Source of the DNA: Minisyncoccota bacterium
GTDB lineage: Bacteria; Patescibacteriota; Minisyncoccia; Phycocordibacterales; UBA2100
Reading direction: 5' to 3'
Assembly: GCA_035500505.1 (NCBI GenBank)
Contig: DATJXE010000003.1
Location: forward strand, 201,697-265,696
Length of the DNA: 64,000 nucleotides
A program made the position numbers and the translations under genes. How positions within the stretch are numbered: position 1 is the stretch's first letter; the number at the start of each line of letters is the position of its first letter. Under the pieces are notes generated by a model. That model did no database searches. It was not told the origin of the DNA and saw only the letters and a program-made list of their open reading frames with translations. Positions 24,479-38,639 of the stretch are shown here, one piece after another.

Positions 24479-24847
24479 ATGACAGCGGAAAAGACGGCAA
24501 CCAAGAAACCTCGCACCTCGCGTGCGAAGAAAGAGGCTGGCCCCAGTCGGCTGCGCATTCGCGTGCGTGCCTACGAGCACGGCGTCTTGGACCGCTCCGT
24601 CAAGCAGATAATCGACACGGCGGCCCGCTACAACGCCAAGGTCGTTGGCCCTGTTCCGCTCCCCATCGATATAAAAAAGTACACCGTCAATCGCGCCGCA
24701 TTTATAGATAAAGACTCGCGCGAGCAATTTGAGATGCGCATCCACAAGCGCATGATAGACATTTTGAATCCCGAGGCGAAGGTCATCGAGGCCCTCACCA
24801 ACATTGATCTTCCTTCAGGCGTCAACATCGACGTGAAGATGATGTAA
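24479..24847 (+). CDS. rpsJ: 30S ribosomal protein S10
   Basis: 'RIRVRAYEHGVLDRSVKQIIDTAARYNAKVVGPVPLP...FEMRIHKRMIDI'. N-terminal Lys/Arg-rich extension. Isolated from the rest of the S10 operon. Confidence 0.85.
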   Translation: MTAEKTATKKPRTSRAKKEAGPSRLRIRVRAYEHGVLDRSVKQIIDTAARYNAKVVGPVPLPIDIKKYTVNRAAFIDKDSREQFEMRIHKRMIDILNPEAKVIEALTNIDLPSGVNIDVKMM

Positions 24848-24947
24848 GTAAACAGGCCAATCTTGACCAGATTGCCTATCATGGTATAATCCCCTTAGTC
24901 TTCGGAACGAGGTCGACCTCGTAGCCCCGGAGCGTTGGAGTAATCCG

Positions 24948-25190
24948 ATGGAAAAGATCGTTTTGGCCGTTTTTGCGGCCATGCTTGCCGTCGCGCCAGC
25001 GTCGGCGGCGTCGCGCTTTACGTCGGAATCGACGTCGGCGTATGCGGAGGCTTATCCGCCTCAGCCCCAGAGTCTCACCGGTAAGTGTAATCAGTGGGCG
25101 GGCGGGGTGTACAACCCCAGCATCCACAAATGGGTTATCACGAGCCGGTACCAGATGCTCCGGAAGTTGGCCTGTCCGTACTACAAATAG
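24948..25190 (+). CDS. Small secreted peptide (80-aa precursor, 2 Cys in mature part)
   Basis: Sec signal 'MEKIVLAVFAAMLAVAPASAAS'. TGGTATAAT promoter and a 16-nt palindromic 5'UTR hairpin (acgaggtcgacctcgt) lie upstream. Confidence 0.5.
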   Translation: MEKIVLAVFAAMLAVAPASAASRFTSESTSAYAEAYPPQPQSLTGKCNQWAGGVYNPSIHKWVITSRYQMLRKLACPYYK

Positions 25191-25268
25191 CGGCAGACCT
25201 GGAGACACTGCTGGAAGACGAATTTAGGCGGCCACATTGGCCGCCTTTTCATATGCGATGGTTCCCGA

Positions 25269-26657
25269 ATGGGATTCTTGTATAATCGTGCTGTGTCCGT
25301 CGCCCGTCGTTTTACGTTTGAATCATACTCGCTCGACACCGATCAGTCCGTAATCACGTTCACCTACCTGGTCGAATTTGAAGGCGGACACCAAGCGCGA
25401 TATGACGATCGGCTCGAATTTCCTGGCACCACGCGGACGATGTGGGAGCGTATTCCAAAGCCTGTTCTTTCGCAACTACTGCAAAGTCTGACCATACTGC
25501 ACGGCAGCGCGTATTGGAAACTCGATCATGCGGGAGAACTTGTCATCAGAGGATTTAGCCTGACTCGCGCGCAAGCAGATTTTTGGAATGAGGTGTATAC
25601 GAAGGGATTCGGGGAATTCTTTTATAGATCAAACATAGACCACAGAGGGCTGGTTTCCTTCCCATACCGCACTCGGTGGTGGTCAGGCCCGTTGTCAACA
25701 AGATTCAAACGTTCCCCACGCACCCTTCTCCTCAACGGCGGCGGCAAGGATACGGTCGTCTCCGCGGAAATGCTCAAAGAGGCCAGCATCGGCTTCGATC
25801 TGTTCACGTTGGCGAATGTTGGCGCAAAGAAGCGCGTCGCGGAGCACATCGGAACAAGGAACATCACGGTGAAACGCAGGGTCGATCCGGCAGCAGCGAG
25901 GACCGCACAGAGAATGAATGTCGCGCCCGGCGGACTTTTTACACTCACGCTCGGATTCCAGGCGCTCCTTGCGGCCACACTGTGGGACTATCGGTATGTT
26001 GTCTTCTCGAACGAGCAAAGCGCCGACATTGGCAACACCAAGTATCTCGGTCTTGACGTGAATCACCAGTGGACCAAGTCGAGGGAAGCGGAAGAACTCA
26101 CCCGGAAGTACGTGCGAACGTTCATCACGCCCGACGTGGAAGTTTTTTCGCTTTTGCGCCAATTCACCGAGATTGAAACGACGCGCCGCTTCAGCCTATA
26201 TTCGAAGTATTTCGATGCATTCTGCAGTTGCAACATGAATTCTCACGTGTCTCCTGACGAACAAGAAAACGCCCCGCGTTCCGGTTGGTGCGGCAAGTGC
26301 GCGAAGTGCATTTTCATATTTGCAGGTCTCACGGCGTTTTTACCGAAGGAGACGGTTGTCGGTATTTTCGGGCGCAACTTGTATCAAGATACGGCGCTGT
26401 TACCGGTGTTCAGGCAACTGCTCGGGCTGCAAGGCATCAAGCCATTCGAATGCGTGGGCACCTCCGAAGAAATGCTCGTCGCGATGCACCGAGCGGCGCA
26501 AACCGGTTTGTACGATACCGATCCCGCCATGGACATGTTCCTCAAAGAGATTCCACGGACAATACCATTCGATGATATAGAACACCGCGTCCTTTCCACT
26601 CACGGAGAGTCGACCGTTCCGACGGAGTTCAAGGCCATGATGGGCCTCGTCTCATGA
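25269..26657 (+). CDS. PP-loop-like ATP pyrophosphatase superfamily protein with C-terminal CxxC motif
   Basis: 'LLLNGGGKDTVVS' resembles an SGGxDS PP-loop. 'GWCGKCAKC' resembles the QueC-type zinc motif. The true start may be internal. Confidence 0.4.
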   Translation: MGFLYNRAVSVARRFTFESYSLDTDQSVITFTYLVEFEGGHQARYDDRLEFPGTTRTMWERIPKPVLSQLLQSLTILHGSAYWKLDHAGELVIRGFSLTRAQADFWNEVYTKGFGEFFYRSNIDHRGLVSFPYRTRWWSGPLSTRFKRSPRTLLLNGGGKDTVVSAEMLKEASIGFDLFTLANVGAKKRVAEHIGTRNITVKRRVDPAAARTAQRMNVAPGGLFTLTLGFQALLAATLWDYRYVVFSNEQSADIGNTKYLGLDVNHQWTKSREAEELTRKYVRTFITPDVEVFSLLRQFTEIETTRRFSLYSKYFDAFCSCNMNSHVSPDEQENAPRSGWCGKCAKCIFIFAGLTAFLPKETVVGIFGRNLYQDTALLPVFRQLLGLQGIKPFECVGTSEEMLVAMHRAAQTGLYDTDPAMDMFLKEIPRTIPFDDIEHRVLSTHGESTVPTEFKAMMGLVS

Positions 26658-26755
26658 GCCACACGAGCATTGCTTTTCTGTGTTTCGTGGCGCACAGTGG
26701 GTGCGGGCAGATTGCGGATGAACATGAACGCTGCCGCAGGTGGAGGATATAGAAA

Positions 26756-27211
26756 ATGGATCTTGAACTAAGGATCGAGGATCGCTCGTGGGACCGCGAA
26801 CGGCACTTGCGCCACATCAACGAAGGGGCATGGCTTCCCATGTTGGACGCGGATGGTAAGGTGCTCCCGGGTATTGTCGGAAAACGCGGCGTCGAAGGCG
26901 ACAAAAAAGACAGCACCAAGATCGGTGCCGATTTCGTGAAGATGAACCCGGGCACGAAATTTCCTCTACACGAGCATGAAGGCGAGCACGAGATCTTTTT
27001 CATTTCTGGTGAGGGGTTCGTGCATATCGATGGGGAAAATATCCCCGTCCGGGCGGGACACGTAATCCACATTCCGGGGGAATATCCCCATGGCGTGTGG
27101 GTTAGCGAAAATGTCAGCGAGCCGCTTATTTTCGTGGCCGCAGGGCATCCGCACAAACACGTCGATGCGGCCGATCGTATGCAACACCCACATGCACACC
27201 GGCACAGATGA
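26756..27211 (+). CDS. Cupin-domain protein with His-rich C-terminal tail
   Basis: 'PLHEHEGEHEIFFISGEG...HVIHIPGEYPHGV' cupin_2 motifs, and tail 'HPHKHVDAADRMQHPHAHRHR'. Confidence 0.6.
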   Translation: MDLELRIEDRSWDRERHLRHINEGAWLPMLDADGKVLPGIVGKRGVEGDKKDSTKIGADFVKMNPGTKFPLHEHEGEHEIFFISGEGFVHIDGENIPVRAGHVIHIPGEYPHGVWVSENVSEPLIFVAAGHPHKHVDAADRMQHPHAHRHR

Positions 27212-27268
27212 GTTCGAAAACACCACGCAAAAAGAAGGGCCGCCCTGCAAGGCGGTCCTTTATTTTTT

Positions 27269-27838
27269 ATGCAATACTTACGCCGTATGCTCATCTTGCT
27301 CGGCGGTTTTTTGGGGAGTGGACGAAAGATGCTCGCGAAACAGCTCGCTTACCGACAGAAGTTTTATCTCTATGACACGGAGGCAAAGAAGATGCACCAC
27401 CCCGAGTTCCAGTCGGACGGCAGCGTAAAAGAGGTGACCGAACCGCCAAAAAGCGAAGAACAACGGATGTTCCTGTACAAGCGCATCGTTGATGATTTCC
27501 CGCGTCTTTCAAAAATGTATCCGGACACCGTTATTGAGGAGGCATTTCACCGGATCGGACCGCGCGACTACTTCATTACCGAAGCGAAGAAGTTTTTCGA
27601 CCCGGTCGTGTTTGTATGGGTGGACTCTGACGAGGCGCATGTGGAGGAGCGGATGCGACGGATGGTAAAACTCGGGCTGGTAAAGAATCTTAGCGAGGCG
27701 ATGAACCGTCGTCGCAGAGCCGCCCGACATTTCAACCAGGACCCTTCGATGCGGGTGTTCAAGTGTGTCAAAGCCGATAGTGCTGAAGCAGATGCGTTGT
27801 GGACACTCGTTCGCGGAATCGCCGCAGGTAAAAGTTGA
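27269..27838 (+). CDS. P-loop NTPase-like (kinase-like) protein, atypical Walker A
   Basis: 'ILLGGFLGSGRKMLAKQLA' is a glycine-rich loop with RK in place of GK. Weak call. Confidence 0.3.
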   Translation: MQYLRRMLILLGGFLGSGRKMLAKQLAYRQKFYLYDTEAKKMHHPEFQSDGSVKEVTEPPKSEEQRMFLYKRIVDDFPRLSKMYPDTVIEEAFHRIGPRDYFITEAKKFFDPVVFVWVDSDEAHVEERMRRMVKLGLVKNLSEAMNRRRRAARHFNQDPSMRVFKCVKADSAEADALWTLVRGIAAGKS

Positions 27839-27952
27839 ACTATATAATTTTTTTATGACAGCTTTCAGGGGTGGGAGTGCGTGCGAAATTGACTTCCTGT
27901 GGGTAAAACGTACAATGTGAGTTCATCAACTGTCCTGTGAAGGAGAAGAGCG

Positions 27953-28162
27953 ATGAGAAAGCTCATGTTCTTTGCGGCTCTCGCGACGCTGGCGATGATC
28001 AATGTCTGTCAGGCCGCCGACGAGAAGAAAGTTACGACGGTCGACAAAGTCTGTGCGGACGACTGCTACAGTCACTGCGCGTCGCGCGTTGCGCAAAAGC
28101 TGACGGCAAACATTCCCGGCTGTCAGCGTTCGTGCAAGCGAACCCACAACTGCAGCAGTTAA
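27953..28162 (+). CDS. Small Cys-rich secreted peptide (69-aa precursor, 6 Cys in 48-aa mature part)
   Basis: Signal 'MRKLMFFAALATLAMINVCQA', SD AAGGAG. Spacing CxxxCxxxC...CxxxCxxxxxC. Followed by a hairpin + T-run. Confidence 0.5.
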   Translation: MRKLMFFAALATLAMINVCQAADEKKVTTVDKVCADDCYSHCASRVAQKLTANIPGCQRSCKRTHNCSS

Positions 28163-28185
28163 AGCACGAAGGGCGCGTCGGATGA

Positions 28186-28218
28186 AGGGGGTTGGGCGTT
28201 GCTCAGCCCCCATCTTTT
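28186..28218. terminator. Hairpin + T-run between convergent genes
   Basis: ggggg-ttgggcgttgctcag-ccccc-atctttt. Confidence 0.4.
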
Positions 28219-29329
28219 ATATGAAATCATTCTTCGGTTCGTAATACGTCGAGCGATCTAGTTCTTCGGAGAACTTAAATTGTTCGTCGATGAATGGCCA
28301 GACTTTCTGCTGGACCACAAGAAAATGAAGGGATCCGCGTTTCAGTTTATTGTCGCGATACTCCGCATCTTTGGTAAAGTCATAGATAACGTCTTTGCAC
28401 GGCCATTTGTAGGTGCGCCACTCATTTCTTATTTTTTTGTCGAGATTATTCATGCTCCAGAGTTGGAACTCGTCGGTGCGGTAGAACGGCAGGTACTTCG
28501 ATACAGCATATTCGGGCGTTATGCGTGGTGCCATGTATTTCGAAACGAACGTTAGCGTGCGCATGGAAACCGTTTGCCACTTCAACGCAAAATTTATCCA
28601 CCAGAAGAACAGGTAGTTCGTTTCTACGGGGACAGGAGCCGCGTCCTTAACACGCTCGAACATATCCATATAAAAATTCGTCACCTCGTCATCATGCACA
28701 AGGGAGTTGTAAAACGAGAAAATCGTGTCTCGGGAGTACGGCTGATGTAGTGGTGTCGTGCCCAGCATCGCAATGAACTTCGCAACGATGTCAGAGCCGA
28801 ACAGTTGGTCATTGTGTTCGCCGTTGACGATGACATGTTCGCCGCCGAGGAGGAGCGGAAAATGTCCAGACGATTCAGTCTGAAGTTTTCCGTGAATGTA
28901 TTCTTTGTAAAAGGTGGGATATTCGGCGATGGATTCTTCGCTCATGAGTACCGTAATATTCTTTTTCTGCTCAGGGGTAGCATTTTTTAGGAACGACACT
29001 AACACAAGGGTCGAATCTATGCCCCCCGACCAGAATGTGTAGAGCGGAACGCCGAGCTTATCTGCGTGTGCAAGCAATTCACGCGCCCGGTCGTTGCATA
29101 GTTCTTCGAACGTCTTCGTAGTTGATTTGAGTGTTGGAATGGGGAAAAGCGATTCCGTGCGTATGGGAAAACGCACAGTGCCAGTCCGGTCGTTCGGGGC
29201 GACTCCCTGGCCGTATATCTTGAAATAGTTGGAGAACCTCTCGATACCCGGCAGATCAAAATTCGCCGTGTTCGCAACAATGCGCGGCGCATAATGAAGG
29301 AGGCGCGGTGCGTCAGATGACCGCACCAT
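28217..29329 (-). CDS. Asparagine-synthetase-like PP-loop ATP pyrophosphatase
   Basis: 'LYTFWSGGIDSTLVLVSF' SGGxDS PP-loop. AT-rich gene, 370 aa. Confidence 0.55.
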   Translation of the reverse strand: MVRSSDAPRLLHYAPRIVANTANFDLPGIERFSNYFKIYGQGVAPNDRTGTVRFPIRTESLFPIPTLKSTTKTFEELCNDRARELLAHADKLGVPLYTFWSGGIDSTLVLVSFLKNATPEQKKNITVLMSEESIAEYPTFYKEYIHGKLQTESSGHFPLLLGGEHVIVNGEHNDQLFGSDIVAKFIAMLGTTPLHQPYSRDTIFSFYNSLVHDDEVTNFYMDMFERVKDAAPVPVETNYLFFWWINFALKWQTVSMRTLTFVSKYMAPRITPEYAVSKYLPFYRTDEFQLWSMNNLDKKIRNEWRTYKWPCKDVIYDFTKDAEYRDNKLKRGSLHFLVVQQKVWPFIDEQFKFSEELDRSTYYEPKNDFI

Positions 29330-30044
29330 AACAATCTTTGTAGAAACGCTGTAAAGTTGCCGTGAGTTCCTCTACCGTCTTTGCTTCACGGGCGTTGTTG
29401 AAGTAACGCAGCCGGAGCAATTCCGTTTTCGCGAGCTGGTCTTCATCCATTTGGGACTTGAAAAGGATGTCGTTGGCAGCCTGTTTCGGGTCGATGTTCG
29501 CGAAGTCGGCGTACTGAACGACGAAGGGAAATTCCAGCAGGCGTTGCTCGTCGTATCCTGAATCTTTGAAGCCCTTTGCTTGAGCGGCTTTCATTGCATA
29601 GACGGTTTCTTGGAAAGCGACGCCAGTTCCGACTCGATCGCGCGAGGCACTTATGGTGGTCATAATGCGTCCGACAACCTTTCCTTTTTCAGTTGTGAGG
29701 CTCGCCTGGCCACGCAACGCATCGGTTACCTGTTCGGACGGTGTGCGCACGAATAATCGCTCGTTCGTCCAAGTCCATTCGGGGTATGACTCGGAAGGGA
29801 CGCCTTCGAGAAAGAAAGAGTCGGGATAATTGGGATAGTTCACCTCCTGGACGTAAAACGAACCCGATGTGCACTCCTCTAAAAATACAAGGGTTGAGGG
29901 GTACGGGGAGATGGTAAGGAGTCGCTTTTCGCCATCGAGCAACGCACCATATCTGCGAGTAAATCTCGGTGCACCCGTATCCGGGGTATGAGAAAAAGGC
30001 CAGCGCATATGTACCCATTTTACTGGGGCGTTCTGGTCATGCAA
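29313..30044 (-). CDS. Hypothetical protein (operon with ycaO)
   Basis: 243 aa with no motif. Overlaps its neighbours by 17-25 nt. Confidence 0.35.
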   Translation of the reverse strand: MHDQNAPVKWVHMRWPFSHTPDTGAPRFTRRYGALLDGEKRLLTISPYPSTLVFLEECTSGSFYVQEVNYPNYPDSFFLEGVPSESYPEWTWTNERLFVRTPSEQVTDALRGQASLTTEKGKVVGRIMTTISASRDRVGTGVAFQETVYAMKAAQAKGFKDSGYDEQRLLEFPFVVQYADFANIDPKQAANDILFKSQMDEDQLAKTELLRLRYFNNAREAKTVEELTATLQRFYKDCYGAVI

Positions 30045-31639
30045 TAGAGTTCATTGGCAACGGTCGTCATGAAAAAACGCTTGGTCGCTGGGTTATATGC
30101 AATTTTATTGACGATACGTTCGGTCGCTTGAAAGACTGATTGCCCCGCGCCAGTCTCAGGATCTATCGCGTACAGTCTCCCATCGTTAGAGCCAATGTAA
30201 ATGGCATCTTCCACCAAAAGTGGAGAGGCAAAAATTCGGCCGGCAGTGCGGAACTCCCATTTTTTCGATCCGGTATCAAGGTCGAGGGCGTAGACGCCTT
30301 TGTCCAGCGAGGAGAAATACGCAGTCTCGCCAATAACGAGCGGTGTCGAGTAACTCCCCGCGCTCGGCTCGTACGCGAATATCGGCGTACCATCGGTATC
30401 AAGGGCGTAAAACAGTCCGCCGAGTGAACCGAAGAGAATAAGCTGCCGTTTCGGGTCGTACGCAAAGGATGATTTTACGCTACCTTGCACACGATACTGC
30501 CAAAGGGGAGCACCCGAATCGGCTCGATATGCGTACACGATGTCATCGTTGCTTCCGACGACGACCATGTTCTTTTCTCGTATGTACAGAGGAGATCCGT
30601 GCGTGCACTCGCCGCTATGGTGCTGCCATACAACCTCACCGGTATCCATTCTCAAGGCGACCATGCCGCCTTGTTTCCGGAAAAGCCCGAACTCAAGGCC
30701 GATGAAGAGAAGACCGAGGTCGGGCGCAAGCGACGGTGAAGAGCCGACCCAATCCGCGTCTTCGTACTTCCATTTGAGAGTGCCCGATCGTGCTTCGAGC
30801 GCATAGACGTTACCATCGTATGCGCCGAAATAGACGGTGTCCCGGTGGAGAGCGGGAGAGGAAAAGATTCCTTTACCAGCCGGATGTTTGCCCGTTTCGA
30901 ATGACCAGGCGACCGAACCATCATTCTGGTTCAGCGCATAAAAAGTTCCCGCATCGCTACCAAAATAGACACGCTCGGCATCCAGAACGGGGGCGGACTT
31001 TTGTACCACGTAGTTAAAGGCGGGGTTGGGAGCGGCAAAATGCCATAGCTGTGTGAGCGCCGCTCTCTTCGCCTTCGGCGTTGTAAGTGAGAGACCGAAA
31101 TCTTCGAGTGTGAAAAGCTTATGCATTGTGCGTTTTTTGTCGAGCAGCGGCGCGTACGCAGTGTCATCCCTGAACGCGATAAGCGCGAACATGTCAGACA
31201 CGGCCAGCCCCTCGCGTTCCAGGACCTGTATCTGCGTGGTGAAGGTATTCCCGGAATTGACGAGATCGTCCACCAAAATAACGGGATCGCGTGTCGGGGC
31301 ACCTTCGAGGCGTCTCATGAGTCCTTGTCGTTTACGCGACTTTCGAATAAAAAGCCCGTTCACTGGTGTTCCACGTTCCATGCTTTTCATCACGATAGCT
31401 GCTACGAGGGCAATGCCAGCGCTTTCCATAGCGCAAACTTGGAACGGATACCTTTTTGCGCATGCATCCCAGAAGAATTCCGCGTACGCATCCAGCCAAC
31501 GAGGCTGCAGCAAGAGCGCGCGGAAGTCGAAGAGCCACGGCGCATACGAAGCCTCATCGACCATGACGATGGGCCGTTCTGGAGAGAAATGTACGATCAC
31601 GTCTTTCGCTATCGCTTCGCGAAGGGTTTTTTTGTCCAT
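30020..31639 (-). CDS. Phosphoribosyltransferase-domain / PQQ-like beta-propeller fusion protein
   Basis: N-terminal 'DPVILVDDLVNSGNTF' PRTase motif. C-terminal 6-8 repeats 'VYFGSDAGTFYALNQNDGSVAWSF', 'VYALEARSGTLKWKY', etc. (PQQ/BamB-like). Confidence 0.6.
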   Translation of the reverse strand: MDKKTLREAIAKDVIVHFSPERPIVMVDEASYAPWLFDFRALLLQPRWLDAYAEFFWDACAKRYPFQVCAMESAGIALVAAIVMKSMERGTPVNGLFIRKSRKRQGLMRRLEGAPTRDPVILVDDLVNSGNTFTTQIQVLEREGLAVSDMFALIAFRDDTAYAPLLDKKRTMHKLFTLEDFGLSLTTPKAKRAALTQLWHFAAPNPAFNYVVQKSAPVLDAERVYFGSDAGTFYALNQNDGSVAWSFETGKHPAGKGIFSSPALHRDTVYFGAYDGNVYALEARSGTLKWKYEDADWVGSSPSLAPDLGLLFIGLEFGLFRKQGGMVALRMDTGEVVWQHHSGECTHGSPLYIREKNMVVVGSNDDIVYAYRADSGAPLWQYRVQGSVKSSFAYDPKRQLILFGSLGGLFYALDTDGTPIFAYEPSAGSYSTPLVIGETAYFSSLDKGVYALDLDTGSKKWEFRTAGRIFASPLLVEDAIYIGSNDGRLYAIDPETGAGQSVFQATERIVNKIAYNPATKRFFMTTVANELYCMTRTPQ

Positions 31640-31644
31640 GTGAT

Positions 31645-32388
31645 TCAATCGTGTACCTCTTGTAGGGAGCTCCTGGTGTCTTCTCCTCGGCACAGGATGA
31701 TCGAGAGGACTGGCTGCTCGAGCCGTTCGTCTATGTCGAGCAGAGATAGAGCAACTTCGTCAGAAAACCCGATGACAGGGCGCGCACCAATCTCGCACGC
31801 AGAAGCCGCGAGCAGGATATTTTCCGATAAATGTCCCGCTTCAAGTAGCGCCAGCATATAGGCGAAATCGCCGTACTTTGCGGACGAACGTTCCCACACA
31901 CTCGTGAAGAGGACGATTGAGGAAGCGGCGGGCGCCTCTGGGGCGCGTACCAGATCACTCATCGAAAAGTCAGTTGGAACGTCCCAGAGCCGCTCGAGCG
32001 CATGTTCGGTCGGATGATAATGGAACACCCCCGAGCCCGCCCCTTCGATCCCTCTGGAAACGATGTACGTTTCGATCGGAAAAAGCGCGCCGCCGGAAGG
32101 ATATCGACGCCGCACCGAACCATCGTGTCGCCGCAGCCCCGAAAACACTGCTCCCAGATCGTCAGTGGAAAGCGGTCCTTCGTTGCGCAGTTCGAGAAAG
32201 GAGCGTCTGTGGCGAAGCGCCTGAGAAAGCGGAGTTTGTAGCTCCGTTCGCGGCAAGACGAACTGCTGCATGCGAGGGTATTCTTTATGCAAACCCCTCG
32301 GGACGTCCTTCGGGTCGTGCGTTGCCCCGCGTCTAGTAAGGCGAGCGCGCCGCAAGTCGCCGTGGAGATCTGAAAGAAAAAAAGTCAT
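31645..32388 (-). CDS. SagB-type (TOMM/McbC-like) nitroreductase-fold dehydrogenase
   Basis: 'LRHRRSFLEL', 'YPSGGALFPIETYI', 'SIVLFTSVWERSSAKYGDFAYMLALLEAGHLSENILLAASACEIGARPVIGF'. Confidence 0.7.
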   Translation of the reverse strand: MTFFLSDLHGDLRRARLTRRGATHDPKDVPRGLHKEYPRMQQFVLPRTELQTPLSQALRHRRSFLELRNEGPLSTDDLGAVFSGLRRHDGSVRRRYPSGGALFPIETYIVSRGIEGAGSGVFHYHPTEHALERLWDVPTDFSMSDLVRAPEAPAASSIVLFTSVWERSSAKYGDFAYMLALLEAGHLSENILLAASACEIGARPVIGFSDEVALSLLDIDERLEQPVLSIILCRGEDTRSSLQEVHD

Positions 32389-32389
32389 A

Positions 32390-33823
32390 TCAACAGAATG
32401 GGTGCGGTCGTTCGACGAATGGTTGTTCTAAAGGTTCGTAGCCGAACAGGCGGGGGACAAGTTGAAGCCGTTCTCCCCCGAGATGTCGCATCCGCTCGGC
32501 AAGGTGTGTTGGATGCAAATCAGGCATAAGGATCATTTCGATGTGCCACGGGGTCGGATTCGCCTTAGAGGAGGTCAAGGGTACCGAAACACACTCATAA
32601 CCTTTTTCTCGGCACCAATTCTCGATCCGTTCCAACTGCATCTGCGGTGTGTCGTCTTCCCAGGCCGCCCGAACGGGGTCTTTCTCTTCCCCAGAGACTA
32701 GGAACTCAAGATGGCGTGCATGTTCGGGGTCTTGCCAGTAATGCACGCGACCTCGGTGGCCGATATCGTCGACCGGTTTTGATGGGTCATAAAACTCGTC
32801 GGGATCGGCCTTGCGCGTAAAGCGTCGCGCACGCAATGCTTCCAAGATTGCTTTTTCGGAAGCATCCGCAAGTGAGCGGTGTGCCTTAAGCCCGAAGGCG
32901 AAACGAGGACCGACCGGACTAGGGTCCTCAAGGATCGCACAAACGGCATGTGTCGGTGCATCAGTAAGCATTGTGATGATGTGTACGCGTAGGCCGTAGC
33001 GTTCGCAGCGAGAAATGATAGCGTCGAGTGTCTTTGATCGTGTTCGTAGCGAAGAGGGGTGTATGCGCGGCAGTGAAAGCTGATTAAACCACATGATCAT
33101 ATACGATTCTCGTTCGATACACTCAAGCGCCCCGGCGAGCCGCGCGCCGATCCTTGTCGGCCATGTCGCAAGTCCTGTGGTATGTTGCATTCGTATCAGC
33201 GGTTCCTGAGGAGATACTTTAAATGGACCCCACGCCGCACTAACAGTTTGCGCCGGCACGTAGATTTTTTTACCGCTTACGAGTGATGTCCCTTCAATCC
33301 ATAGATACGATGCTTCGGGAGGGAGGCGAAACTGTGACGATTGCAGGCGTTGTGCCTCTGAAAAAGAAACGAATTGATGTGGAGCGATGATAGGGAAGCG
33401 AGCTCGCATTTCGTCAATCGTGCCGCGTCGCGGACGGACGAAGTAATCGCGCTGTGTCCACCAAATGTAACGTTCAAGGCCTTCTGCGAGCGCTGCAAAG
33501 AGAGCAGACGTATCGTTGTCGACCGACGAACCGCCGGCGAAGTTTTCCGCGGAGTCTCTCACTCGACAGATCCAGTGTCGCACTCCTGGTTCATCTGGCA
33601 ATCCTTCCGTAGGACCGTACCAGCTCACGACGCCCCGGTCGATGAGCTTCGTCGCGACAGACAATGGTTCTGCTAGGTCAGCGCGACCGAACGGCACGCG
33701 CCTTTTATCGTACAGCACGGTGACGCCGAGCCTTCGCTCAATGAATTCGAGGAAAGAAACTATGGCTCGTCGCCCCCGATTTTCTTGAGCGACGTCATCA
33801 AACCGCACTCCGTCGATGAGCAT
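32390..33823 (-). CDS. ycaO: YcaO-domain ATP-dependent cyclodehydratase
   Basis: 'AGGSSVDNDTSALFAALAEGLERY' and 'TTGLATWPTRIGARLAGALECIERESYMIMW' YcaO signatures. Pro-rich C-terminus 'ERPHPFC'. Confidence 0.8.
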   Translation of the reverse strand: MLIDGVRFDDVAQENRGRRAIVSFLEFIERRLGVTVLYDKRRVPFGRADLAEPLSVATKLIDRGVVSWYGPTEGLPDEPGVRHWICRVRDSAENFAGGSSVDNDTSALFAALAEGLERYIWWTQRDYFVRPRRGTIDEMRARFPIIAPHQFVSFSEAQRLQSSQFRLPPEASYLWIEGTSLVSGKKIYVPAQTVSAAWGPFKVSPQEPLIRMQHTTGLATWPTRIGARLAGALECIERESYMIMWFNQLSLPRIHPSSLRTRSKTLDAIISRCERYGLRVHIITMLTDAPTHAVCAILEDPSPVGPRFAFGLKAHRSLADASEKAILEALRARRFTRKADPDEFYDPSKPVDDIGHRGRVHYWQDPEHARHLEFLVSGEEKDPVRAAWEDDTPQMQLERIENWCREKGYECVSVPLTSSKANPTPWHIEMILMPDLHPTHLAERMRHLGGERLQLVPRLFGYEPLEQPFVERPHPFC

Positions 33824-33928
33824 TCCGCGATTCTAGCACAAGGGCCATTCCACAGCCTGCCGCTTGGGTTACTGCAAAGTATCCACACGCCATGCGACTC
33901 AGCGGCAAGTACCTGGTACTATGGGTGC

Positions 33929-34234
33929 ATGCGTTCTGCCAATAAGAATACTCGGGGTCTCTTGCGGAAGATCTTTCTCTCCGCGACGATCGTATTCGGT
34001 TTTCTATCTATCATATTTTCAAGGGATTTTGGTGGAGCATCACGCCTGCTTTTCAGGGAACGGGACAACGGGATAGCGCATGCCGACGCGCCGAGTAGCG
34101 GCGGGGGCGGAGACGGGGGTGGAGGCGGCTCTGGCGATGCTCCCAGTTGCAACTACGGTGACGCCGGCAGTGGGTGCTCAGATTGCGGAGCCGATAGTGC
34201 GAGCGCGGACGCAGGCGGGGGCGATGCAGGGTAA
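33929..34234 (+). CDS. Candidate RiPP precursor: hydrophobic leader + Gly/Ser/Cys/Asp-rich C-terminal core
   Basis: Divergent from ycaO in a ~430-nt intergenic gap. Core 'DAPSSGGGGDGGGGGSGDAPSCNYGDAGSGCSDCGADSASADAGGGDAG'. Could instead be a chance ORF in G-rich DNA. Confidence 0.35.
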   Translation: MRSANKNTRGLLRKIFLSATIVFGFLSIIFSRDFGGASRLLFRERDNGIAHADAPSSGGGGDGGGGGSGDAPSCNYGDAGSGCSDCGADSASADAGGGDAG

Positions 34235-34254
34235 ACAACCCAGTAAATTTTTGT

Positions 34255-35400
34255 ATGAGCAAGACAACGGGAATAGCGATTGTAGGAATGGTGGTGGCGG
34301 TTCTGCTCGCTATAATTGCCGTCGTATTCCTGTATGAACAAAATTTTGTTGCACAGCCTTCTCACCCTTCAAACCAGGACCTCTGGTATGAAACCCTGCA
34401 GGACAATCCAGCGTTCGCACTTGCGCTCCAAGAAGAAGGACAAGGCGACTACGGCGCAGGCGCCGAGAGTGTAAAGCAGGCGCTTGCTTCAGCGGCAAAG
34501 TCCGACCAGATGCAGTTGCTTGCGGTGTATCTCGGGGTGGCGTATGGATACGCCGGGGACTACCAAAACGCCGTCACTCAGCTGGAACAAGTGGTTGCGA
34601 CGAACTCGGATACTCCGGATACACGTGCTTTTGCGGCCGAGCAACTAGCTCTTGCGTACTCGCGCAATCCGGCCGCGAACTCCGTGTTAGCAATGTTACA
34701 GCAACCCGCATATAAGAGTCTGTACGTAGCGACCAGCACAAATCTAACGGCGCGAGGACTCTTTCTGTATGCGACCGCGATCAAGCCGTTGCCACTTTCC
34801 GAATACAACATTGCGAACACGTTCGCTACCTCCATTTTCAACCAAAGCCTGGTTGGCACCACTTCTCCTGCCGGCAAGGCACAATTCGCATCCCTTGAAC
34901 AGAAGTTGAAGAACCGACTGCTTGCCGGGGATGCGGCTCTTGCCACGCTCGACCAGGTTCCTTATCCGAGTTATGAACCCGAAGCTCAGGCGTTGAAGGC
35001 TCTCGTTCTCGGAAAGCTTCAAATCATGGGCGACACAAGTTTGGGTGATGCTAGTCAGGCATACACAACTGCACTCGCAAGCTATGCGCTCCAGGGTGCC
35101 CAAGATGGACAAGTTCGCATATGGTATGCATCGTTCCTAGCGGCTGCTTACGGGACGTCGCGCCTCGCGGACATAGAATCTGTTCTCGCTCCGATTTATC
35201 AAGACCCGACGCACCGCGGCGTAACCGTGGTTTCCACCTTGCAATCGTATGTGGGTGCGCTCAATTCAAGCTCGAAACGAAGTCTTGCAACGCTCGCAGC
35301 CATCGACCCTCAGTTCAGGACATTTCTACAATCCTTAGGGTGGACGGCTAAGGATTTTTCAGCGACAATCGTTCAGACTTCGACAACGACGACAAAATAG
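34255..35400 (+). CDS. Hypothetical membrane-anchored Ala-rich protein
   Basis: N-terminal TM 'IAIVGMVVAVLLAIIAVVFLY', then a 350-aa Ala/Leu/Gln-rich extracytoplasmic domain. Confidence 0.45.
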   Translation: MSKTTGIAIVGMVVAVLLAIIAVVFLYEQNFVAQPSHPSNQDLWYETLQDNPAFALALQEEGQGDYGAGAESVKQALASAAKSDQMQLLAVYLGVAYGYAGDYQNAVTQLEQVVATNSDTPDTRAFAAEQLALAYSRNPAANSVLAMLQQPAYKSLYVATSTNLTARGLFLYATAIKPLPLSEYNIANTFATSIFNQSLVGTTSPAGKAQFASLEQKLKNRLLAGDAALATLDQVPYPSYEPEAQALKALVLGKLQIMGDTSLGDASQAYTTALASYALQGAQDGQVRIWYASFLAAAYGTSRLADIESVLAPIYQDPTHRGVTVVSTLQSYVGALNSSSKRSLATLAAIDPQFRTFLQSLGWTAKDFSATIVQTSTTTTK

Positions 35401-35402
35401 GC

Positions 35403-36209
35403 ATGGCGGCCGTGTCGACCGATCGACTGTTCTATCCGGCGTGGGCGATCGTGATCGCACTCGCGCTCTTTTTTTTGGCGCCTGAAGCGCACACGTTCGC
35501 GACGAATGTCTACGAGGACATGGCTTACGCGGTCGATCCCTCGGCGTCCCGGGCCTTCGCTTACGGAGAGCGACATTTCGATGCGACGAACCCGAGCGAG
35601 TATGACCTCGATCGTGCCGAGTATTTTTTCACTCTCGCGGCGAAGAAAGATCCGTCGACTCCCTATCTCTATCATGAACTGGCGCGCATTTCTTTTTTGC
35701 GCGGCGACTATAAGCAGGCACTGGCGAGGATCGACTTCCAGATAATGCTTCACGGTGACTCCGAGCCGAATTCCTATTACGTGCGCGGGCTCATTGAGGG
35801 ATACATGCGCGATTATGGAGACGCCATAACTGACTACACGCATTTCCTGCTGTTCGACCCCAACGACTGGGCCGCCATTAATGATGATGCGTGGGTCTTA
35901 CTCAAGGCGGGACGTTTTCAAGAAGCGGCCGATCTCACGACCAAAGGCCTGAAGATATATCCGGAGAATCCGTGGCTTCTCAACTCGAACGCGACCGCGC
36001 TTTATGAGTTGGGCCTCTACCAGCCTGCCCTTGCTGCTGCCGAAAAAGCCGAGGCTGCTGTAGCTACCGTCACGGATTCCGAGTGGTCACATGCCTATCC
36101 CGGCAACGACCCAACCATCGCGGGGGAAGGCGTCGCCTCCTTTAGGCAAGCCGTGGCTGACAATGTGCACACCATCCAACTGGCGCTTGCCACGAGTACG
36201 GTACAATGA
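35403..36209 (+). CDS. TPR-repeat protein with N-terminal TM anchor
   Basis: Several 34-aa TPR-like repeats ('YYVRGLIEGYMRDYGDAITDYTHFLLFDPND', etc.). Confidence 0.6.
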   Translation: MAAVSTDRLFYPAWAIVIALALFFLAPEAHTFATNVYEDMAYAVDPSASRAFAYGERHFDATNPSEYDLDRAEYFFTLAAKKDPSTPYLYHELARISFLRGDYKQALARIDFQIMLHGDSEPNSYYVRGLIEGYMRDYGDAITDYTHFLLFDPNDWAAINDDAWVLLKAGRFQEAADLTTKGLKIYPENPWLLNSNATALYELGLYQPALAAAEKAEAAVATVTDSEWSHAYPGNDPTIAGEGVASFRQAVADNVHTIQLALATSTVQ

Positions 36210-36220
36210 CGTAAAACCCT

Positions 36221-37933: not shown

Positions 37934-37982
37934 GCGTGGGGAAAAACGTCCGCGCCGCCTGGCTCGATGCTATAGTTGTTGC

Positions 37983-38429
37983 ATGCAGAGAGTTTCTCTC
38001 CGGACGTTCGCTTTCCCGCTGGCCCTTGCGGTTGCGATAGTTTCGGCAAGCGCGGCGTTTGCGTATGCGCAGACCACAACCGACGCGCAACTTCGCGCGA
38101 CCATCCAGGCCGAAGTGACGGCCGATCCGCGTTCGCAAACGATGTCGCAGGCGCAGATACAAGCGCTTGTCGACTCGCTCACCGCCCAGGCACAGGCGCA
38201 AGGCCTCACGGCTTCGCAGCTCACCTATCGTGCGCCCACCCAAACTCCGGAGACTTCCTTGCCCGCGCCGAGTTCGCAGTGCACGACGTTCTCCTGTTCG
38301 CTCGCCCGCGCGTTCGGGCTCGACGGCTCCGTTCCCATCATCCCCATTGCGCTTTTTGTGGCGGCGGCACTCTTCATTCTTCTTTTCAGCATCATGCGCG
38401 AGTTAGGGCATCCGCACGCACAGGCTTAG
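37983..38429 (+). CDS. Hypothetical secreted protein with C-terminal TM anchor
   Basis: Signal 'AFPLALAVAIVSASAAFAYA'. C-terminal 'IIPIALFVAAALFILLF'. Confidence 0.4.
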   Translation: MQRVSLRTFAFPLALAVAIVSASAAFAYAQTTTDAQLRATIQAEVTADPRSQTMSQAQIQALVDSLTAQAQAQGLTASQLTYRAPTQTPETSLPAPSSQCTTFSCSLARAFGLDGSVPIIPIALFVAAALFILLFSIMRELGHPHAQA

Positions 38430-38434
38430 AGCGT

Positions 38435-38562
38435 GCGGCGAAGCAGCATGAGTTTTTGAATATCTCGGCTTTGCCACCGTTCTCTTTCTCTGTGCCGGAC
38501 TCTGCCGCAAGAAAACCATTTTGGAAAAATGTGGTAAACAAAAACTCATGCTGCTTCGCCGC
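38435..38562. repeat. Perfect 24-bp inverted repeat (arms 38435-38458, 38539-38562; 80-nt spacer)
   Basis: gcggcgaagcagcatgagtttttg / caaaaactcatgctgcttcgccgc. It starts 6 nt after a stop codon, upstream of the rplC operon. Confidence 0.85.
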
Positions 38563-38639
38563 ATAGCGGCATAGTTGCACGCCTTCTTTTTTCGTATATA
38601 GTGCTTCCACCCAAGTCCGTATATGGACCAATGGTGAGC

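What the first reader, a model, noticed from the sequence alone, without database searches (positions are those of the whole stretch)
30020..31639. Phosphoribosyltransferase domain fused to a PQQ-like beta-propeller, inside the YcaO operon
Seen:
- The N-terminal ~190 aa carry the type I PRTase PRPP-binding loop 'VILVDDLVNSGNTF'.
- The C-terminal ~330 aa are 6-8 classic PQQ/BamB-type beta-propeller blades (VYFGSDAGTFYALNQNDGSVAW, VYALEARSGTLKW, etc.).
- The protein has no signal peptide and directly follows the SagB-type dehydrogenase gene.

Inference: I am not aware of this domain architecture as a described family, so its role (substrate-recognition scaffold? phosphoribosylation of a peptide or nucleobase?) is open. 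A second, tiny PRTase-only protein sits at 21005-21400 in the same island.
Basis: partly seen in the sequence, partly recalled or inferred. Interest (0 to 1): 0.6.

Follow-up and report, generated by a model that had tools for sequence, protein, structure and literature searches.

The report
OPRT-like enzyme fused to BamB-like propeller
A real, widely conserved but uncharacterised two-domain protein of tiny "candidate phyla radiation" bacteria, an orotate-phosphoribosyltransferase-like domain fused to an eight-bladed propeller, travels with peptide-modifying enzymes and a new family of acidic, glycine-rich exported peptides, so it may add a modification not yet known in ribosomal peptides.

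Summary
The gene lies on the minus strand (30020-31639) and encodes 539 aa. Residues 1-185 form an orotate-PRTase-like domain in which the PRPP loop and the catalytic loop are intact. Residues 195-539 form an eight-bladed BamB-like propeller with no signal peptide. The gene starts 5 nt after the stop codon of a SagB-type dehydrogenase gene, which follows a YcaO gene.

The fusion is not an artefact. The 120 best of 1,948 hits span the query at 87-100% (mostly 99%) and 51-100% identity. At least 192 GTDB species carry relatives, nearly all Patescibacteria.

YcaO lies within 8 kb in 52 of 79 loci. The link to a divergently transcribed small precursor is equally frequent. That precursor has a basic N-terminus, a TM helix, an 'AHADAP' motif and an Asp/Gly/Ser/Cys-rich tail, and it comes with a 380-aa membrane protein.

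Distant family members sit in other RiPP-type clusters: a His-Xaa-Ser radical-SAM system, a C39-ABC exporter with a double-glycine Asp/Gly peptide, and fusions to an Asp hydroxylase, a formyltransferase and a sulfotransferase.

Best reading: a dedicated peptide-maturation component, in which the propeller docks and the OPRT-like domain uses PRPP. This is inferred; no experiment supports it. It is neither a housekeeping PyrE, a PQQ enzyme nor BamB. The small PRTase at 21005-21400 is unrelated. I found no literature on this architecture.

The parts
30020..31639 (-). PRT-propeller fusion gene (539 aa plus stop)
   Evidence: ORF and translation. Identical protein P0001 in an NCBI 'Candidatus Paceibacterota' MAG. 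The 120 best homologues cover 87-100% of the query, mostly 99%.
31085..31639 (-). OPRT-like type I PRTase domain (residues 1-185)
   Evidence: pyrE TIGR00336 2.4e-9. Profile against PDB: human, Corynebacterium and M. tuberculosis OPRTs at 1.7e-11 to 4e-10. Foldseek: top 22 hits are all OPRTs.
31301..31345 (-). Flexible catalytic-loop equivalent, R99-K100-S101-R102-K103...E112-G113
   Evidence: Aligns with RKETKDYG..EG and RKEAKKHG..EG of solved OPRTs. R99, K100, S101, R102, E112 and G113 are invariant in 35 sequences. The lowest pLDDT in the model (57-64) falls in the 10-residue block 101-110 within this loop, consistent with a mobile loop.
31244..31282 (-). PRPP-binding loop V120-ILVDDLVNSGN-T132
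   Evidence: D124, N128 and G130 invariant, D125 at least 90%. An acidic pair is present in 103/108 full-length representatives.
30023..31057 (-). Eight-bladed BamB/PQQ_2-type beta-propeller (residues 195-539)
   Evidence: Pfam. AF2 strand pattern of 8 x 4 strands with N-terminal velcro strand 195-202. Foldseek matches Cake8 and BamB.
31645..32388 (-). SagB-type FMN dehydrogenase gene, immediately upstream
   Evidence: TIGR03605 8.9e-30, 103 bits above cutoff 78; Pfam Nitroreductase.
32390..33823 (-). YcaO (SagD-like) gene, first gene of the operon
   Evidence: Pfam YcaO 4.6e-40. TIGR03604 4.3e-52, below cutoff. ExxER motifs invariant (E114, E117, R118, E234, R238); C-terminal PHPF.
33929..34234 (+). 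Candidate precursor (101 aa): basic N-terminus, TM helix, AHADAP motif, 49-residue Gly/Asp/Ser/Ala/Cys tail
   Evidence: Translation. 31 of 32 homologous small ORFs share the motif and tail composition. A strict pattern scan gives one hit in the 64-kb window, here, and zero in reversed-sequence nulls.
34255..35400 (+). u381: 381-aa N-terminally anchored helical protein, the second most frequent neighbour (52 of 84 sources; YcaO 57)
   Evidence: Cluster 2, in 52 of 84 sources. Only weak TPR-like hits.
35403..36209 (+). Membrane-anchored TPR protein, conserved neighbour
   Evidence: Pfam TPR families. Cluster 4, in 46 sources.
28217..30044 (-). u243 (29313-30044) and u370 (28217-29329, SGGIDS PP-loop motif): downstream operon genes, accessory
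   Evidence: The genes overlap one another and the stop of the fusion gene. The pair recurs in 10 loci. No family assignment.

Best explanation
The gene encodes a cytoplasmic two-domain protein that is a dedicated component of a peptide-maturation island. The island is specific to Paceibacteria-type CPR bacteria.

The substrate is most likely the small protein encoded divergently at 33929-34234. It has a membrane-targeting N-terminus, a conserved AHADAP motif that is probably a processing site, and an Asp/Gly/Ser/Cys-rich core.

Proposed sequence of events:
- YcaO uses ATP to activate backbone amides, and the SagB-type flavoenzyme oxidises the product. This is azol(in)e-type chemistry, known for these families.
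- The fusion protein is translationally coupled to SagB. Its BamB-like eight-bladed propeller serves as a docking platform for the unstructured peptide and/or the partner enzymes.
- Its OPRT-like domain binds PRPP-Mg and transfers 5-phosphoribose to a nucleophile on the peptide.
- The peptide is then exported.

Shown here: the architecture, the conservation of the catalytic motifs, the operon structure, the co-occurrence, and the family's presence in several independent RiPP-type clusters.

Inferred: that the small protein is the substrate, that the PRT domain is catalytically active, what its acceptor is, and that the propeller docks the peptide.

My sub-probabilities: component of the peptide-maturation system about 0.75; PRT domain binds PRPP about 0.6; it phosphoribosylates the peptide about 0.25-0.3.
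For: Real and conserved:
- The 120 best homologues cover 87-100% of the query (mostly 99%) at 51-100% identity.
- 192 GTDB species representatives carry relatives.
- A search with the N-terminal domain alone finds 354 clusters at E<=1e-10; 108 of the best 150 are 500-600 aa, i.e. fused.

Catalytic features kept:
- RKSRK...EG loop and the VDDxxNxG loop are invariant or nearly invariant.
- An acidic pair is present in 103/108 wider-family representatives, and a basic loop in 82/108.
- The fold is OPRT-like.

Operon: a 5-nt gap after SagB in the window, and a 4-nt overlap in L001-L004.

Co-occurrence:
- YcaO in 52/79 loci, SagB in 45/79, u381 in 50/79, YcaO or u381 in 69/79. Seven of the ten loci with neither are cut by contig ends.
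- Gene order is rearranged between loci while linkage is kept.
- Reverse test: about 16 of about 25 informative loci selected by a same-clade YcaO carry the fusion; no distant YcaO locus does.

Precursor family: present in 33/80 fusion loci and 15/39 same-clade YcaO loci, against 0/24 distant loci and 0 in nulls.

Independent RiPP contexts for distant members:
- Directly after an HxsA4 repeat precursor, with HxsB, HxsC-like and HxsD-like genes.
- Radical-SAM neighbours.
- A double-glycine Asp/Gly peptide with a C39-ABC exporter.
- Gene fusions to an Asp/Asn hydroxylase, a formyltransferase, a sulfotransferase and a B12-rSAM.

No E1-like, Ocin-ThiF-like or TfuA partner was found among the frequent neighbour families scanned.
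Against: - There is no biochemical evidence of any kind.
- No type I PRTase is known to act on a peptide, and the acceptor is unknown.
- About one third of loci have no YcaO within 8 kb, so the protein is not an obligate YcaO partner.
- Most loci come from one bacterial class, so shared ancestry inflates the co-occurrence figures.
- Conservation of the PRPP loop would also fit a PRPP-sensing domain.
- The tools gave no inter-protein or inter-domain contact information.
- The precursor assignment rests on position and composition only.
Confidence: 0.5

Rival explanations
1. Non-catalytic partner or scaffold. The fusion replaces the E1-like 'C protein' or RRE of classical azoline synthetases. 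The propeller binds the leader or core peptide, and the PRT-fold domain (Rossmann-like, as the E1-like partner is) only potentiates YcaO, or binds the polyanionic Asp-rich tail in the former PRPP site.
For: No E1-like, Ocin-ThiF-like or TfuA gene in the operon or among frequent neighbours. The gene order YcaO-SagB-X mimics a SagBCD-type three-gene set. BamB-type propellers are interaction scaffolds. The catalytic loop is unusually basic (RKSRKR) next to very acidic substrates.
Against: The D124-D125 ribose/Mg pair and the whole OPRT catalytic loop are under strong purifying selection, which a pure scaffold would not need. The protein also occurs without YcaO and with radical-SAM systems. Standalone YcaOs without partners are known from the bottromycin pathway (my own knowledge), so a partner is not required.
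Confidence: 0.2
2. PRPP or nucleotide sensor. The PRT domain binds PRPP as an effector, as in B. subtilis PurR, and gates peptide maturation or export according to nucleotide status. The propeller is the output or interaction domain.
For: The PRPP loop is conserved. CPR bacteria depend on salvage, so PRPP status is physiologically meaningful (my own knowledge). Regulatory PRT-fold proteins exist; PyrR appears among the weak hits.
Against: The OPRT-type catalytic loop, with Lys and Arg residues that act on the pyrophosphate leaving group, is also conserved. Fusions to tailoring enzymes (hydroxylase, sulfotransferase, formyltransferase, B12-rSAM) look like biosynthetic modules rather than regulators.
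Confidence: 0.1
3. Housekeeping orotate PRTase (PyrE) that happens to be fused to a propeller. Its linkage to YcaO is inherited synteny without functional meaning.
For: The closest sequence and structure relatives are all genuine OPRTs.
Against: The pyrE equivalog model scores 37 bits against a cutoff of 107. No pyr genes occur among the conserved neighbour families. There are up to two paralogues per island. The N-terminal SG motif of OPRTs is lost and family-specific invariants PFQ and E72 replace the PPi-binding segment. Linkage survives gene-order rearrangement, and the family recurs in unrelated RiPP clusters outside CPR-type loci.
Confidence: 0.05
4. Assembly, frameshift or gene-calling artefact that joins two genes.
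For: None found.
Against: A single uninterrupted ORF. An identical protein in an independent NCBI MAG, and over a hundred near-full-length homologues from NCBI, JGI, ENA and Logan assemblies. A confident single-chain model in which the propeller is closed by the strand that follows the PRT domain.
Confidence: 0.01

Closest known systems
Orotate phosphoribosyltransferase (PyrE; short actinobacterial/human-type OPRT, e.g. PDB 5hkf, 2p1z, 2wns)
   Same: Same type I PRTase fold including the hood. Same PRPP loop with an acidic pair. Same flexible RK..K..G....EG catalytic loop. Arg at the position of the orotate-binding Arg (AFR against LDR).
   Different: Only 15-25% identity and far below the equivalog cutoff. 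The N-terminal SG motif is lost. Family-specific PFQ and E72 residues are present. It is fused to a propeller, has no pyrimidine-pathway context, and sits in peptide-maturation clusters.
BamB / YxaL-type eight-bladed PQQ_2 propellers
   Same: Eight blades of the same repeat family. TM 0.8-0.87 normalised to BamB. Same size, about 340 aa.
   Different: Cytoplasmic, with no lipoprotein or signal sequence. TIGR03300 scores 111 bits against a cutoff of 285. The host is a CPR bacterium with no sign of a BAM context here. In close relatives it carries extra invariant polar residues (D296, W297, E316, H347, D446, K447, R468, E507, R508).
TOMM/linear azol(in)e RiPP clusters (SagBCD, McbBCD type)
   Same: A YcaO cyclodehydratase homologue plus a SagB-type dehydrogenase in one operon, next to a Gly/Ser/Cys-rich small ORF reminiscent of the microcin B17 core.
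   Different: No E1-like C protein or RRE was found. The third operon gene is the PRT-propeller. The precursor has a TM/signal-like N-terminus with an AHADAP motif instead of a classical leader. The core is strongly acidic (17% Asp). The island is embedded between rpsJ and rplC.
HXS antiphage system (HxsA-D; Li et al. 2026, PMC13128918)
   Same: The same logic: a small signal-peptide-bearing protein with a low-complexity repeat region is matured by cytoplasmic enzymes, N-terminally processed and exported. One distant PRT-propeller (L149) sits directly after an HxsA4 precursor alongside HxsB, HxsC-like and HxsD-like genes.
   Different: The window has no radical-SAM genes and no His-Xaa-Ser repeats. 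Its tail is acidic, not His-rich. The published E. coli HXS system has no PRT-propeller; the paper contains no occurrence of 'phosphoribosyl', 'PQQ' or 'propeller'. No PADLOC model hits any gene of the island.
AASDH/ACSF4-type beta-propeller (Pfam PF13570)
   Same: The best Pfam match for the propeller, 5.5e-52 and above the gathering score. In both cases a PQQ-like propeller is appended to an enzyme whose domain binds an activated phosphate ester.
   Different: The partner domain there is an adenylation/NRPS-like module, not a PRTase. The function of that propeller is also unknown.

Membership tests
Type I phosphoribosyltransferase superfamily | PRPP-binding loop: four hydrophobic residues, two acidic residues, then x-x-(T/S/N)-(S/T)-G-x-T | tested here: met
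   V120-ILVDDLVNSGN-T132. D124, N128 and G130 are invariant in 35 sequences. An acidic pair is present in 103/108 representatives.
Type I phosphoribosyltransferase superfamily | Five-stranded alpha/beta core fold with hood | tested here: met
   AF2 model of the domain has pLDDT 89.6. Foldseek gives TM 0.77-0.87 to OPRTs and 457 PDB hits at E<=1e-3, with OPRTs and APRTs among the 50 listed.
Orotate phosphoribosyltransferase (PyrE equivalog) | Score above the curated cutoff of the equivalog model | tested here: not met
   TIGR00336 37.2 bits against 106.8. NF001729 30.8 against 245.
Orotate phosphoribosyltransferase (PyrE equivalog) | Flexible catalytic loop with conserved Arg/Lys (R99, K100, K103 in Salmonella numbering) | tested here: met
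   RKSRKRQG....EG aligns with RKETKDYG..EG (human) and RKEAKKHG..EG (Corynebacterium).
Orotate phosphoribosyltransferase (PyrE equivalog) | Orotate-binding residues and OMP-forming activity | tested here: inconclusive
   R157 aligns with the orotate-binding Arg. However, the N-terminal S-G-x-x-S/K segment is replaced and PFQ...E72 replaces the Tyr-Lys segment. Activity cannot be tested with these tools.
Orotate phosphoribosyltransferase (PyrE equivalog) | Pyrimidine-biosynthesis gene context | tested here: not met
   No pyr gene was identified among the neighbour clusters that were annotated, out of the 30 most frequent in 84 sources.
PQQ-dependent dehydrogenase (quinoprotein) | Score above the family cutoff, and a propeller of about 550-600 aa with cofactor and metal ligands | tested here: not met
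   TIGR03075 80 bits against 480. TIGR03074 51 against 833. The propeller is only about 345 aa, and PedH aligns with TM about 0.5.
PQQ-dependent dehydrogenase (quinoprotein) | Periplasmic location (signal peptide) | tested here: not met
   The N-terminus is the first helix of the PRT fold, with no hydrophobic leader.
BamB (outer-membrane assembly lipoprotein) | Eight-bladed propeller | tested here: met
   Foldseek E 1e-27 to 1e-24 and TMt 0.8-0.87 to BamB structures.
BamB (outer-membrane assembly lipoprotein) | Lipoprotein signal peptide, and the equivalog cutoff | tested here: not met
   No signal sequence. TIGR03300 111 bits against 285. NF008351 83 against 423.
TOMM-type azol(in)e peptide maturation cluster (system level) | YcaO cyclodehydratase with ATP/Mg-binding glutamates | tested here: met
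   Pfam YcaO 138 bits against a cutoff of 25.7. E114, E117, R118, E234 and R238 are invariant. The SagD subfamily model is below cutoff, 177 against 219.
TOMM-type azol(in)e peptide maturation cluster (system level) | SagB-type FMN dehydrogenase | tested here: met
   TIGR03605 103.4 bits against a cutoff of 78.4.
TOMM-type azol(in)e peptide maturation cluster (system level) | E1-like (C protein) or Ocin-ThiF-like partner carrying an RRE | tested here: not met
   No such family in the operon or among frequent neighbour clusters. The YcaO N-terminal 105 aa has no NCBIfam hit. A remote RRE fold was not excluded by structure.
TOMM-type azol(in)e peptide maturation cluster (system level) | Adjacent precursor with a Cys/Ser/Thr-rich core | tested here: met
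   The 33929-34234 ORF has 3 Cys and 8 Ser in a 49-residue tail. The family-wide tail composition is G 32%, D 17%, S 17%, C 8%. Actual modification cannot be tested with these tools.
HXS (His-Xaa-Ser) system | HxsA repeat protein plus HxsB/HxsC radical-SAM maturases | tested here: not met
   NCBIfam found no HxsA model for the window precursor, and none of the window island genes scanned is a radical-SAM enzyme. These features are met only in the distant locus L149.

The most novel reading that the evidence does not exclude
The OPRT-like domain is a peptide phosphoribosyltransferase. It would use PRPP to N-ribosylate a heterocycle embedded in the precursor. Candidate acceptors are an azole made by YcaO and SagB, a His imidazole in the HxsA4-type loci, or an orotate-like pyrimidone-carboxamide ring made from Asp/Asn by YcaO amidine chemistry followed by SagB oxidation. 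The product would be a ribosomally encoded 'peptide nucleotide' displayed on, or exported from, CPR cells. This would explain why the recruited PRTase is specifically of the orotate type and why the cores are Asp/Gly-rich.
Probability: 0.12. Interest if true: 0.9.

Novelty: new variant of a known kind. Interest (0 to 1): 0.64.

Why it matters
If the PRT domain is active on the peptide, this would be the first PRPP-dependent modification in ribosomal peptide biosynthesis, and a new enzyme class for RiPP genome mining.

Even if it is only a docking subunit, it defines a partner of YcaO and radical-SAM maturases that has not been described, along with a new precursor family: TM/AHADAP leader and Asp/Gly/Ser/Cys core.

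The system is among the few conserved 'accessory' functions in the very small genomes of Paceibacteria. It is inserted between rpsJ and rplC, inside the most conserved operon in bacteria, which suggests strong expression and importance at the cell surface. Possible roles there are metal binding, host or phage interaction, or envelope function.

The parallel with the HXS antiphage effector, described in 2026, gives a testable framework.

Tried and rejected
1. Artefactual fusion: rejected.

2. Genuine PQQ quinoprotein or BamB: rejected on cutoffs, size and the lack of a signal peptide.

3. Relation between the fusion's N-terminal domain and the small PRTase at 21005-21400: none.

4. Known defence system: no PADLOC hit for any island gene.

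5. Literature on PRTase or propeller with YcaO or RiPPs: six searches found nothing relevant. The one paper with several 'phosphoribosyltransferase' mentions concerned hisZ.

6. Foldseek against AFDB50 to find annotated proteins with the same two-domain architecture: the library was not available.

7. Metagenome scan with a broad YcaO alignment failed because no stretch was conserved enough. It was repeated with closer sequences.

8. The first strict precursor detector missed even the window peptide. A relaxed TM criterion with a reversed-sequence null was used instead.

9. Exact-sequence look-up of P0001 found no record, so the window's own contig context came from the window itself.

10. Predicting a YcaO/SagB/fusion complex was considered but not attempted.

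11. I did not test whether the YcaO N-terminal 100 aa is a cryptic RRE.
Full report
**Observation**

The ORF at 30020-31639 is real, but it lies on the minus strand. It has an ATG at 31639 and a stop codon at 30020-30022. The open frame could start at a GTG at 31693, but homologues align from the ATG. It encodes 539 aa.

Pfam sees only the propeller with confidence: Beta-prop_ACSF4 5.5e-52 and PQQ_2 5.5e-38. Generic PRTase models barely detect the N-terminal domain (UPRTase 0.002). NCBIfam pyrE aligns residues 43-179 at 2.4e-9. The domain alone hits human OPRT at 1.4e-7. A 19-sequence family profile hits solved OPRTs at 1.7e-11 to 4e-10 over nearly the whole fold.

**Not an artefact: a large family**

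A protein identical to the query exists in an NCBI 'Candidatus Paceibacterota' MAG on a 367-kb contig. The 120 best of 1,948 hits cover 87-100% of the query (mostly 99%) at 51-100% identity. They come from NCBI, JGI, ENA and Logan assemblies. Automatic names include 'PQQ-binding-like beta-propeller repeat protein' and 'BamB/orotate phosphoribosyltransferase'.

- A scan of one genome per GTDB species found 192 relatives, almost all labelled Patescibacteria: Kaiser-, Nomura-, Adler-, Giovannoni- and Moranbacteria, Paceibacterota and Minisyncoccia.
- A search of 1.84 billion representatives with the N-terminal 200 aa alone gave 1,107 clusters at E<=1e-3 and 354 at E<=1e-10. Of the best 150, 108 are 500-600 aa long, so this PRTase subfamily is essentially always fused to the propeller.

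**Anatomy**

AlphaFold2 with a 35-sequence alignment gives pLDDT 91.7 and pTM 0.86.

Residues 1-185 form an alpha/beta PRTase fold. Modelled alone (pLDDT 89.6), its top 22 Foldseek hits in the PDB are all orotate PRTases. M. tuberculosis OPRT gives TM 0.84-0.87, followed by the Burkholderia, Corynebacterium, human, yeast and Salmonella enzymes. Adenine PRTases come lower.

- The PRPP loop (V120-ILVDDLVNSGN-T132) and the OPRT flexible catalytic loop (R99-KSRKRQG....E112-G113) are both present. The catalytic loop aligns with RKETKDYG..EG and RKEAKKHG..EG of solved OPRTs.
- These loops are invariant or nearly so in 35 family members.
- Among 108 full-length representatives of the wider family, 103 keep the acidic pair and 82 keep a basic loop followed by EG.
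- The loop is the least confident part of the model, as expected for a mobile catalytic loop.
- The family differs from genuine PyrE. The N-terminal S-G motif is lost, and an invariant P65-F66-Q67 and E72 occupy the segment that binds pyrophosphate in OPRTs. The pyrE equivalog model scores 37 bits against a cutoff of 107.

Residues 195-539 form eight four-stranded blades. The ring is closed by strand 195-202, which follows the PRT domain after a short linker, so the two domains are tightly tethered.

- The best structural matches are the designed 8-blade protein Cake8 (TMt 0.93), BamB from many BAM structures (E 1e-27 to 1e-24) and YxaL. A genuine quinoprotein, PedH, aligns poorly (TM about 0.5).
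- Quinoprotein and BamB equivalog models are all far below cutoff.
- There is no signal peptide. 'PQQ' here names a repeat family, not a cofactor.

**Context in the window**

The gene is the third of five tightly packed minus-strand genes:

| Gene | Coordinates | Note |
|---|---|---|
| YcaO | 32390-33823 | first gene |
| SagB-type dehydrogenase | 31645-32388 | starts 1 nt after YcaO |
| PRT-propeller fusion | 30020-31639 | starts 5 nt after SagB |
| u243 | 29313-30044 | ORF from its first possible start (TTG at 30044) overlaps the fusion's stop |
| u370 | 28217-29329 | overlaps u243; carries an SGGIDS PP-loop motif |

Transcribed divergently from YcaO are four plus-strand genes:

- a 101-aa ORF at 33929-34234;
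- a 381-aa N-terminally anchored helical protein (u381);
- a membrane-anchored TPR protein;
- a 570-aa Cys/Gly-rich protein.

The whole 13.8-kb island sits between rpsJ (24479-24847) and rplC (38680-39285). It therefore splits the S10 ribosomal operon, downstream of fusA and tuf. The same placement is seen in other genomes.

**Comparative context**

I called ORFs in 84 sources, clustered them, and counted neighbours. In 79 non-redundant loci selected by the fusion:

| Neighbour within +/-8 kb | Loci |
|---|---|
| YcaO | 52 |
| SagB | 45 |
| u381 | 50 |
| YcaO or u381 | 69 |
| Neither | 10, of which 7 are truncated by contig ends |

- The fusion is directly adjacent to YcaO or SagB in 29 loci, and within three genes in 42.
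- Gene order varies while linkage persists. Observed orders include YcaO>SagB>X, X>SagB<YcaO<, X>YcaO>SagB, and versions with a multi-TM protein inserted. This argues for functional coupling rather than frozen synteny.
- In the reverse test, loci were selected by a YcaO profile from metagenomes. About 16 of about 25 informative same-clade loci (at least 38% identity) carry the fusion. No locus with a distant YcaO (below 30% identity) does.
- Other recurrent neighbours are a membrane-anchored rhodanese, a DsbA-like thioredoxin, a PaaK-like adenylating enzyme, PP-loop ATPases, and unassigned multi-TM and Cys-rich proteins.
- No E1-like, Ocin-ThiF-like or TfuA partner was seen.

**The precursor family**

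The small ORF 5' of u381 is conserved. It has a basic N-terminus, one hydrophobic helix, a spacer, the motif [AV]-[HFY]-A-[DE]-[AV]-P (an AxA-like site), and then a 19-74-residue tail (31 of 32 examples).

- The tail composition is G 32%, D 17%, S 17%, A 9.5%, C 8%, with virtually no K, R, H or N.
- A strict pattern detector finds it in 33/80 fusion loci and 15/39 same-clade YcaO loci. It finds none in 24 distant YcaO loci, none in reversed-sequence nulls, and exactly one in the 64-kb window, at 33929-34234.

**Distant members point the same way**

| Locus | Context of the PRT-propeller |
|---|---|
| L149 (AT-rich 1.5-Mb contig) | Directly follows a His-Xaa-Ser repeat precursor (HxsA4 model, 69 bits against cutoff 55). 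Neighbours are HxsB (456 bits against 370), an HxsD-like protein, several HxsC-like radical-SAM enzymes, and a B12-rSAM fused to a second OPRT-like domain |
| L150, L151 | Abuts radical-SAM genes. L151 also encodes a TM peptide ending GGGGGDGDGDGDGGDSDSNN |
| L152 | A 1,235-aa version precedes a peptide with a double-glycine leader (LKYVAGG) and a DGDGDG/poly-Gly core, an Rce1-like protease, an HlyD-like protein and a C39-peptidase ABC exporter |
| Rare gene fusions | An Asp/Asn beta-hydroxylase, a formyltransferase (next to rhodanese and thioredoxin) or an Stf0-type sulfotransferase (next to an Asp hydroxylase) is joined to the N-terminus |

The family is therefore a recurrent module of peptide-maturation clusters whose substrates are low-complexity, mostly Asp/Gly-rich, exported peptides.

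**Mechanism**

Most likely (0.5 overall), the protein is a dedicated maturation subunit. The BamB-like propeller would dock the unstructured peptide and/or the partner enzymes. The OPRT-like domain would bind PRPP and transfer 5-phosphoribose to a nucleophile on the peptide. This would happen in the cytoplasm, before export and cleavage near AHA|DAP.

Only the architecture, motif conservation, operon structure and associations are shown. Catalysis, the acceptor and the docking role are inferred.

| Rival | Confidence |
|---|---|
| Non-catalytic partner replacing the E1-like C protein or RRE | 0.2 |
| PRPP sensor | 0.1 |
| Housekeeping PyrE with accidental linkage | 0.05 |
| Artefact | 0.01 |

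Retention of both the Mg/ribose acidic pair and the leaving-group loop favours catalysis over scaffolding. That retention would also suit a sensor.

**Comparison with known systems**

The N-terminal domain works like, and folds like, an OPRT, but it fails the PyrE membership tests on cutoff, context and N-terminal motif. The C-terminal domain is a BamB-type propeller, but it is neither BamB nor a quinoprotein.

At system level the operon is a TOMM-like YcaO/SagB cluster that lacks the canonical partner. Its closest conceptual analogue is the HXS antiphage system (PMC13128918). There, a signal-peptide-bearing repeat protein is matured by cytoplasmic enzymes, N-terminally processed and exported. 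The published HXS system has no PRT-propeller, and no PADLOC model matches the island.

**Novelty and limits**

I found no paper describing this architecture or any PRTase in a RiPP pathway. The searched library is incomplete. Databases hold the proteins only under automatic names. I rate it a new variant of a known kind: a YcaO/rSAM peptide-maturation cluster with a new accessory enzyme and a new precursor family.

Limits:
- Most loci come from one class, so co-occurrence is partly phylogenetic.
- No inter-protein contacts could be computed.
- A cryptic RRE in the YcaO N-terminus was not excluded.
- Nothing here is biochemical.

Noticed in passing
window 24479-39285: The 13.8-kb YcaO/PRT-propeller island is inserted between rpsJ (S10, 24479-24847) and rplC (L3, 38680-39285), splitting the S10 ribosomal operon. 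fusA and tuf lie upstream; rplD, rplW and rplB follow. The same placement recurs in other Paceibacteria contigs. The precursor, u381, TPR and Cys-rich genes are co-oriented with rplC.
   Followed up: partly
window 33929-34234 (+): A new small-protein family: basic N-terminus, TM helix, AHADAP motif (AxA-like cleavage site?) and a Gly/Asp/Ser/Cys-rich tail. It is the likely substrate of the island. Found in 33/80 fusion loci and absent from nulls.
   Followed up: yes
window 28217-30044 (-): u243 and u370 overlap each other and the stop of the fusion gene. u370 carries an SGGIDS PP-loop (adenylating ATPase) motif but matches no curated family. The pair recurs in 10 loci.
   Followed up: partly
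window 21005-21400 (+): A 131-aa standalone type I PRTase (Pribosyltran 1.1e-17, xanthine-PRT-like but below cutoff), next to GNAT and DUF924 genes between tuf and rpsJ. It is unrelated to the fusion's PRT domain (BLASTP E 0.58).
   Followed up: yes
window 25269-26657 (+): A 462-aa protein resembling MurL, the UDP-MurNAc-L-Ala-L-Glu epimerase (NF041275 2.2e-77, 260 bits, below the cutoff of 700). It lies just after rpsJ inside the island.
   Followed up: no
window 36221-37933 (+): A 570-aa N-terminally anchored protein with many CxxGY/Cys-rich EGF-like repeats and long Gly runs. Homologous Cys-rich proteins (clusters c7 and c27) are frequent island neighbours.
   Followed up: no
L149 1-16916: A His-Xaa-Ser (HXS) type-4 cluster on a 1.5-Mb AT-rich contig. 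It contains an HxsD-like gene, HxsB, an HxsA4 precursor, a PRT-propeller, several HxsC-like rSAMs and a 971-aa B12-rSAM::OPRT-like fusion. It links the family to a system recently shown to be antiphage in E. coli.
   Followed up: partly
L152 780-9655: A 1,235-aa PRT-propeller with a 690-aa unassigned C-terminal extension. It is followed by a double-glycine-leader peptide with a DGDGDG/poly-Gly core, an Rce1-like protease, an HlyD-like protein and a C39-ABC exporter.
   Followed up: partly
L016 and L078; L025 and L053; L040: Some genomes carry two PRT-propeller paralogues 10-20 kb apart in one enlarged island. One is next to YcaO-SagB and one is next to the precursor/u381 pair. Multiple precursor copies also occur.
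   Followed up: no
window 31301-31345 (-) compared with L149 4396-6015: The catalytic-loop sequence is very basic (RKSRKR) in loci with Asp-rich precursors, but REERKEK in the single locus with a His-rich precursor. This may indicate charge complementarity with the substrate. It is anecdotal (n=1).
   Followed up: no
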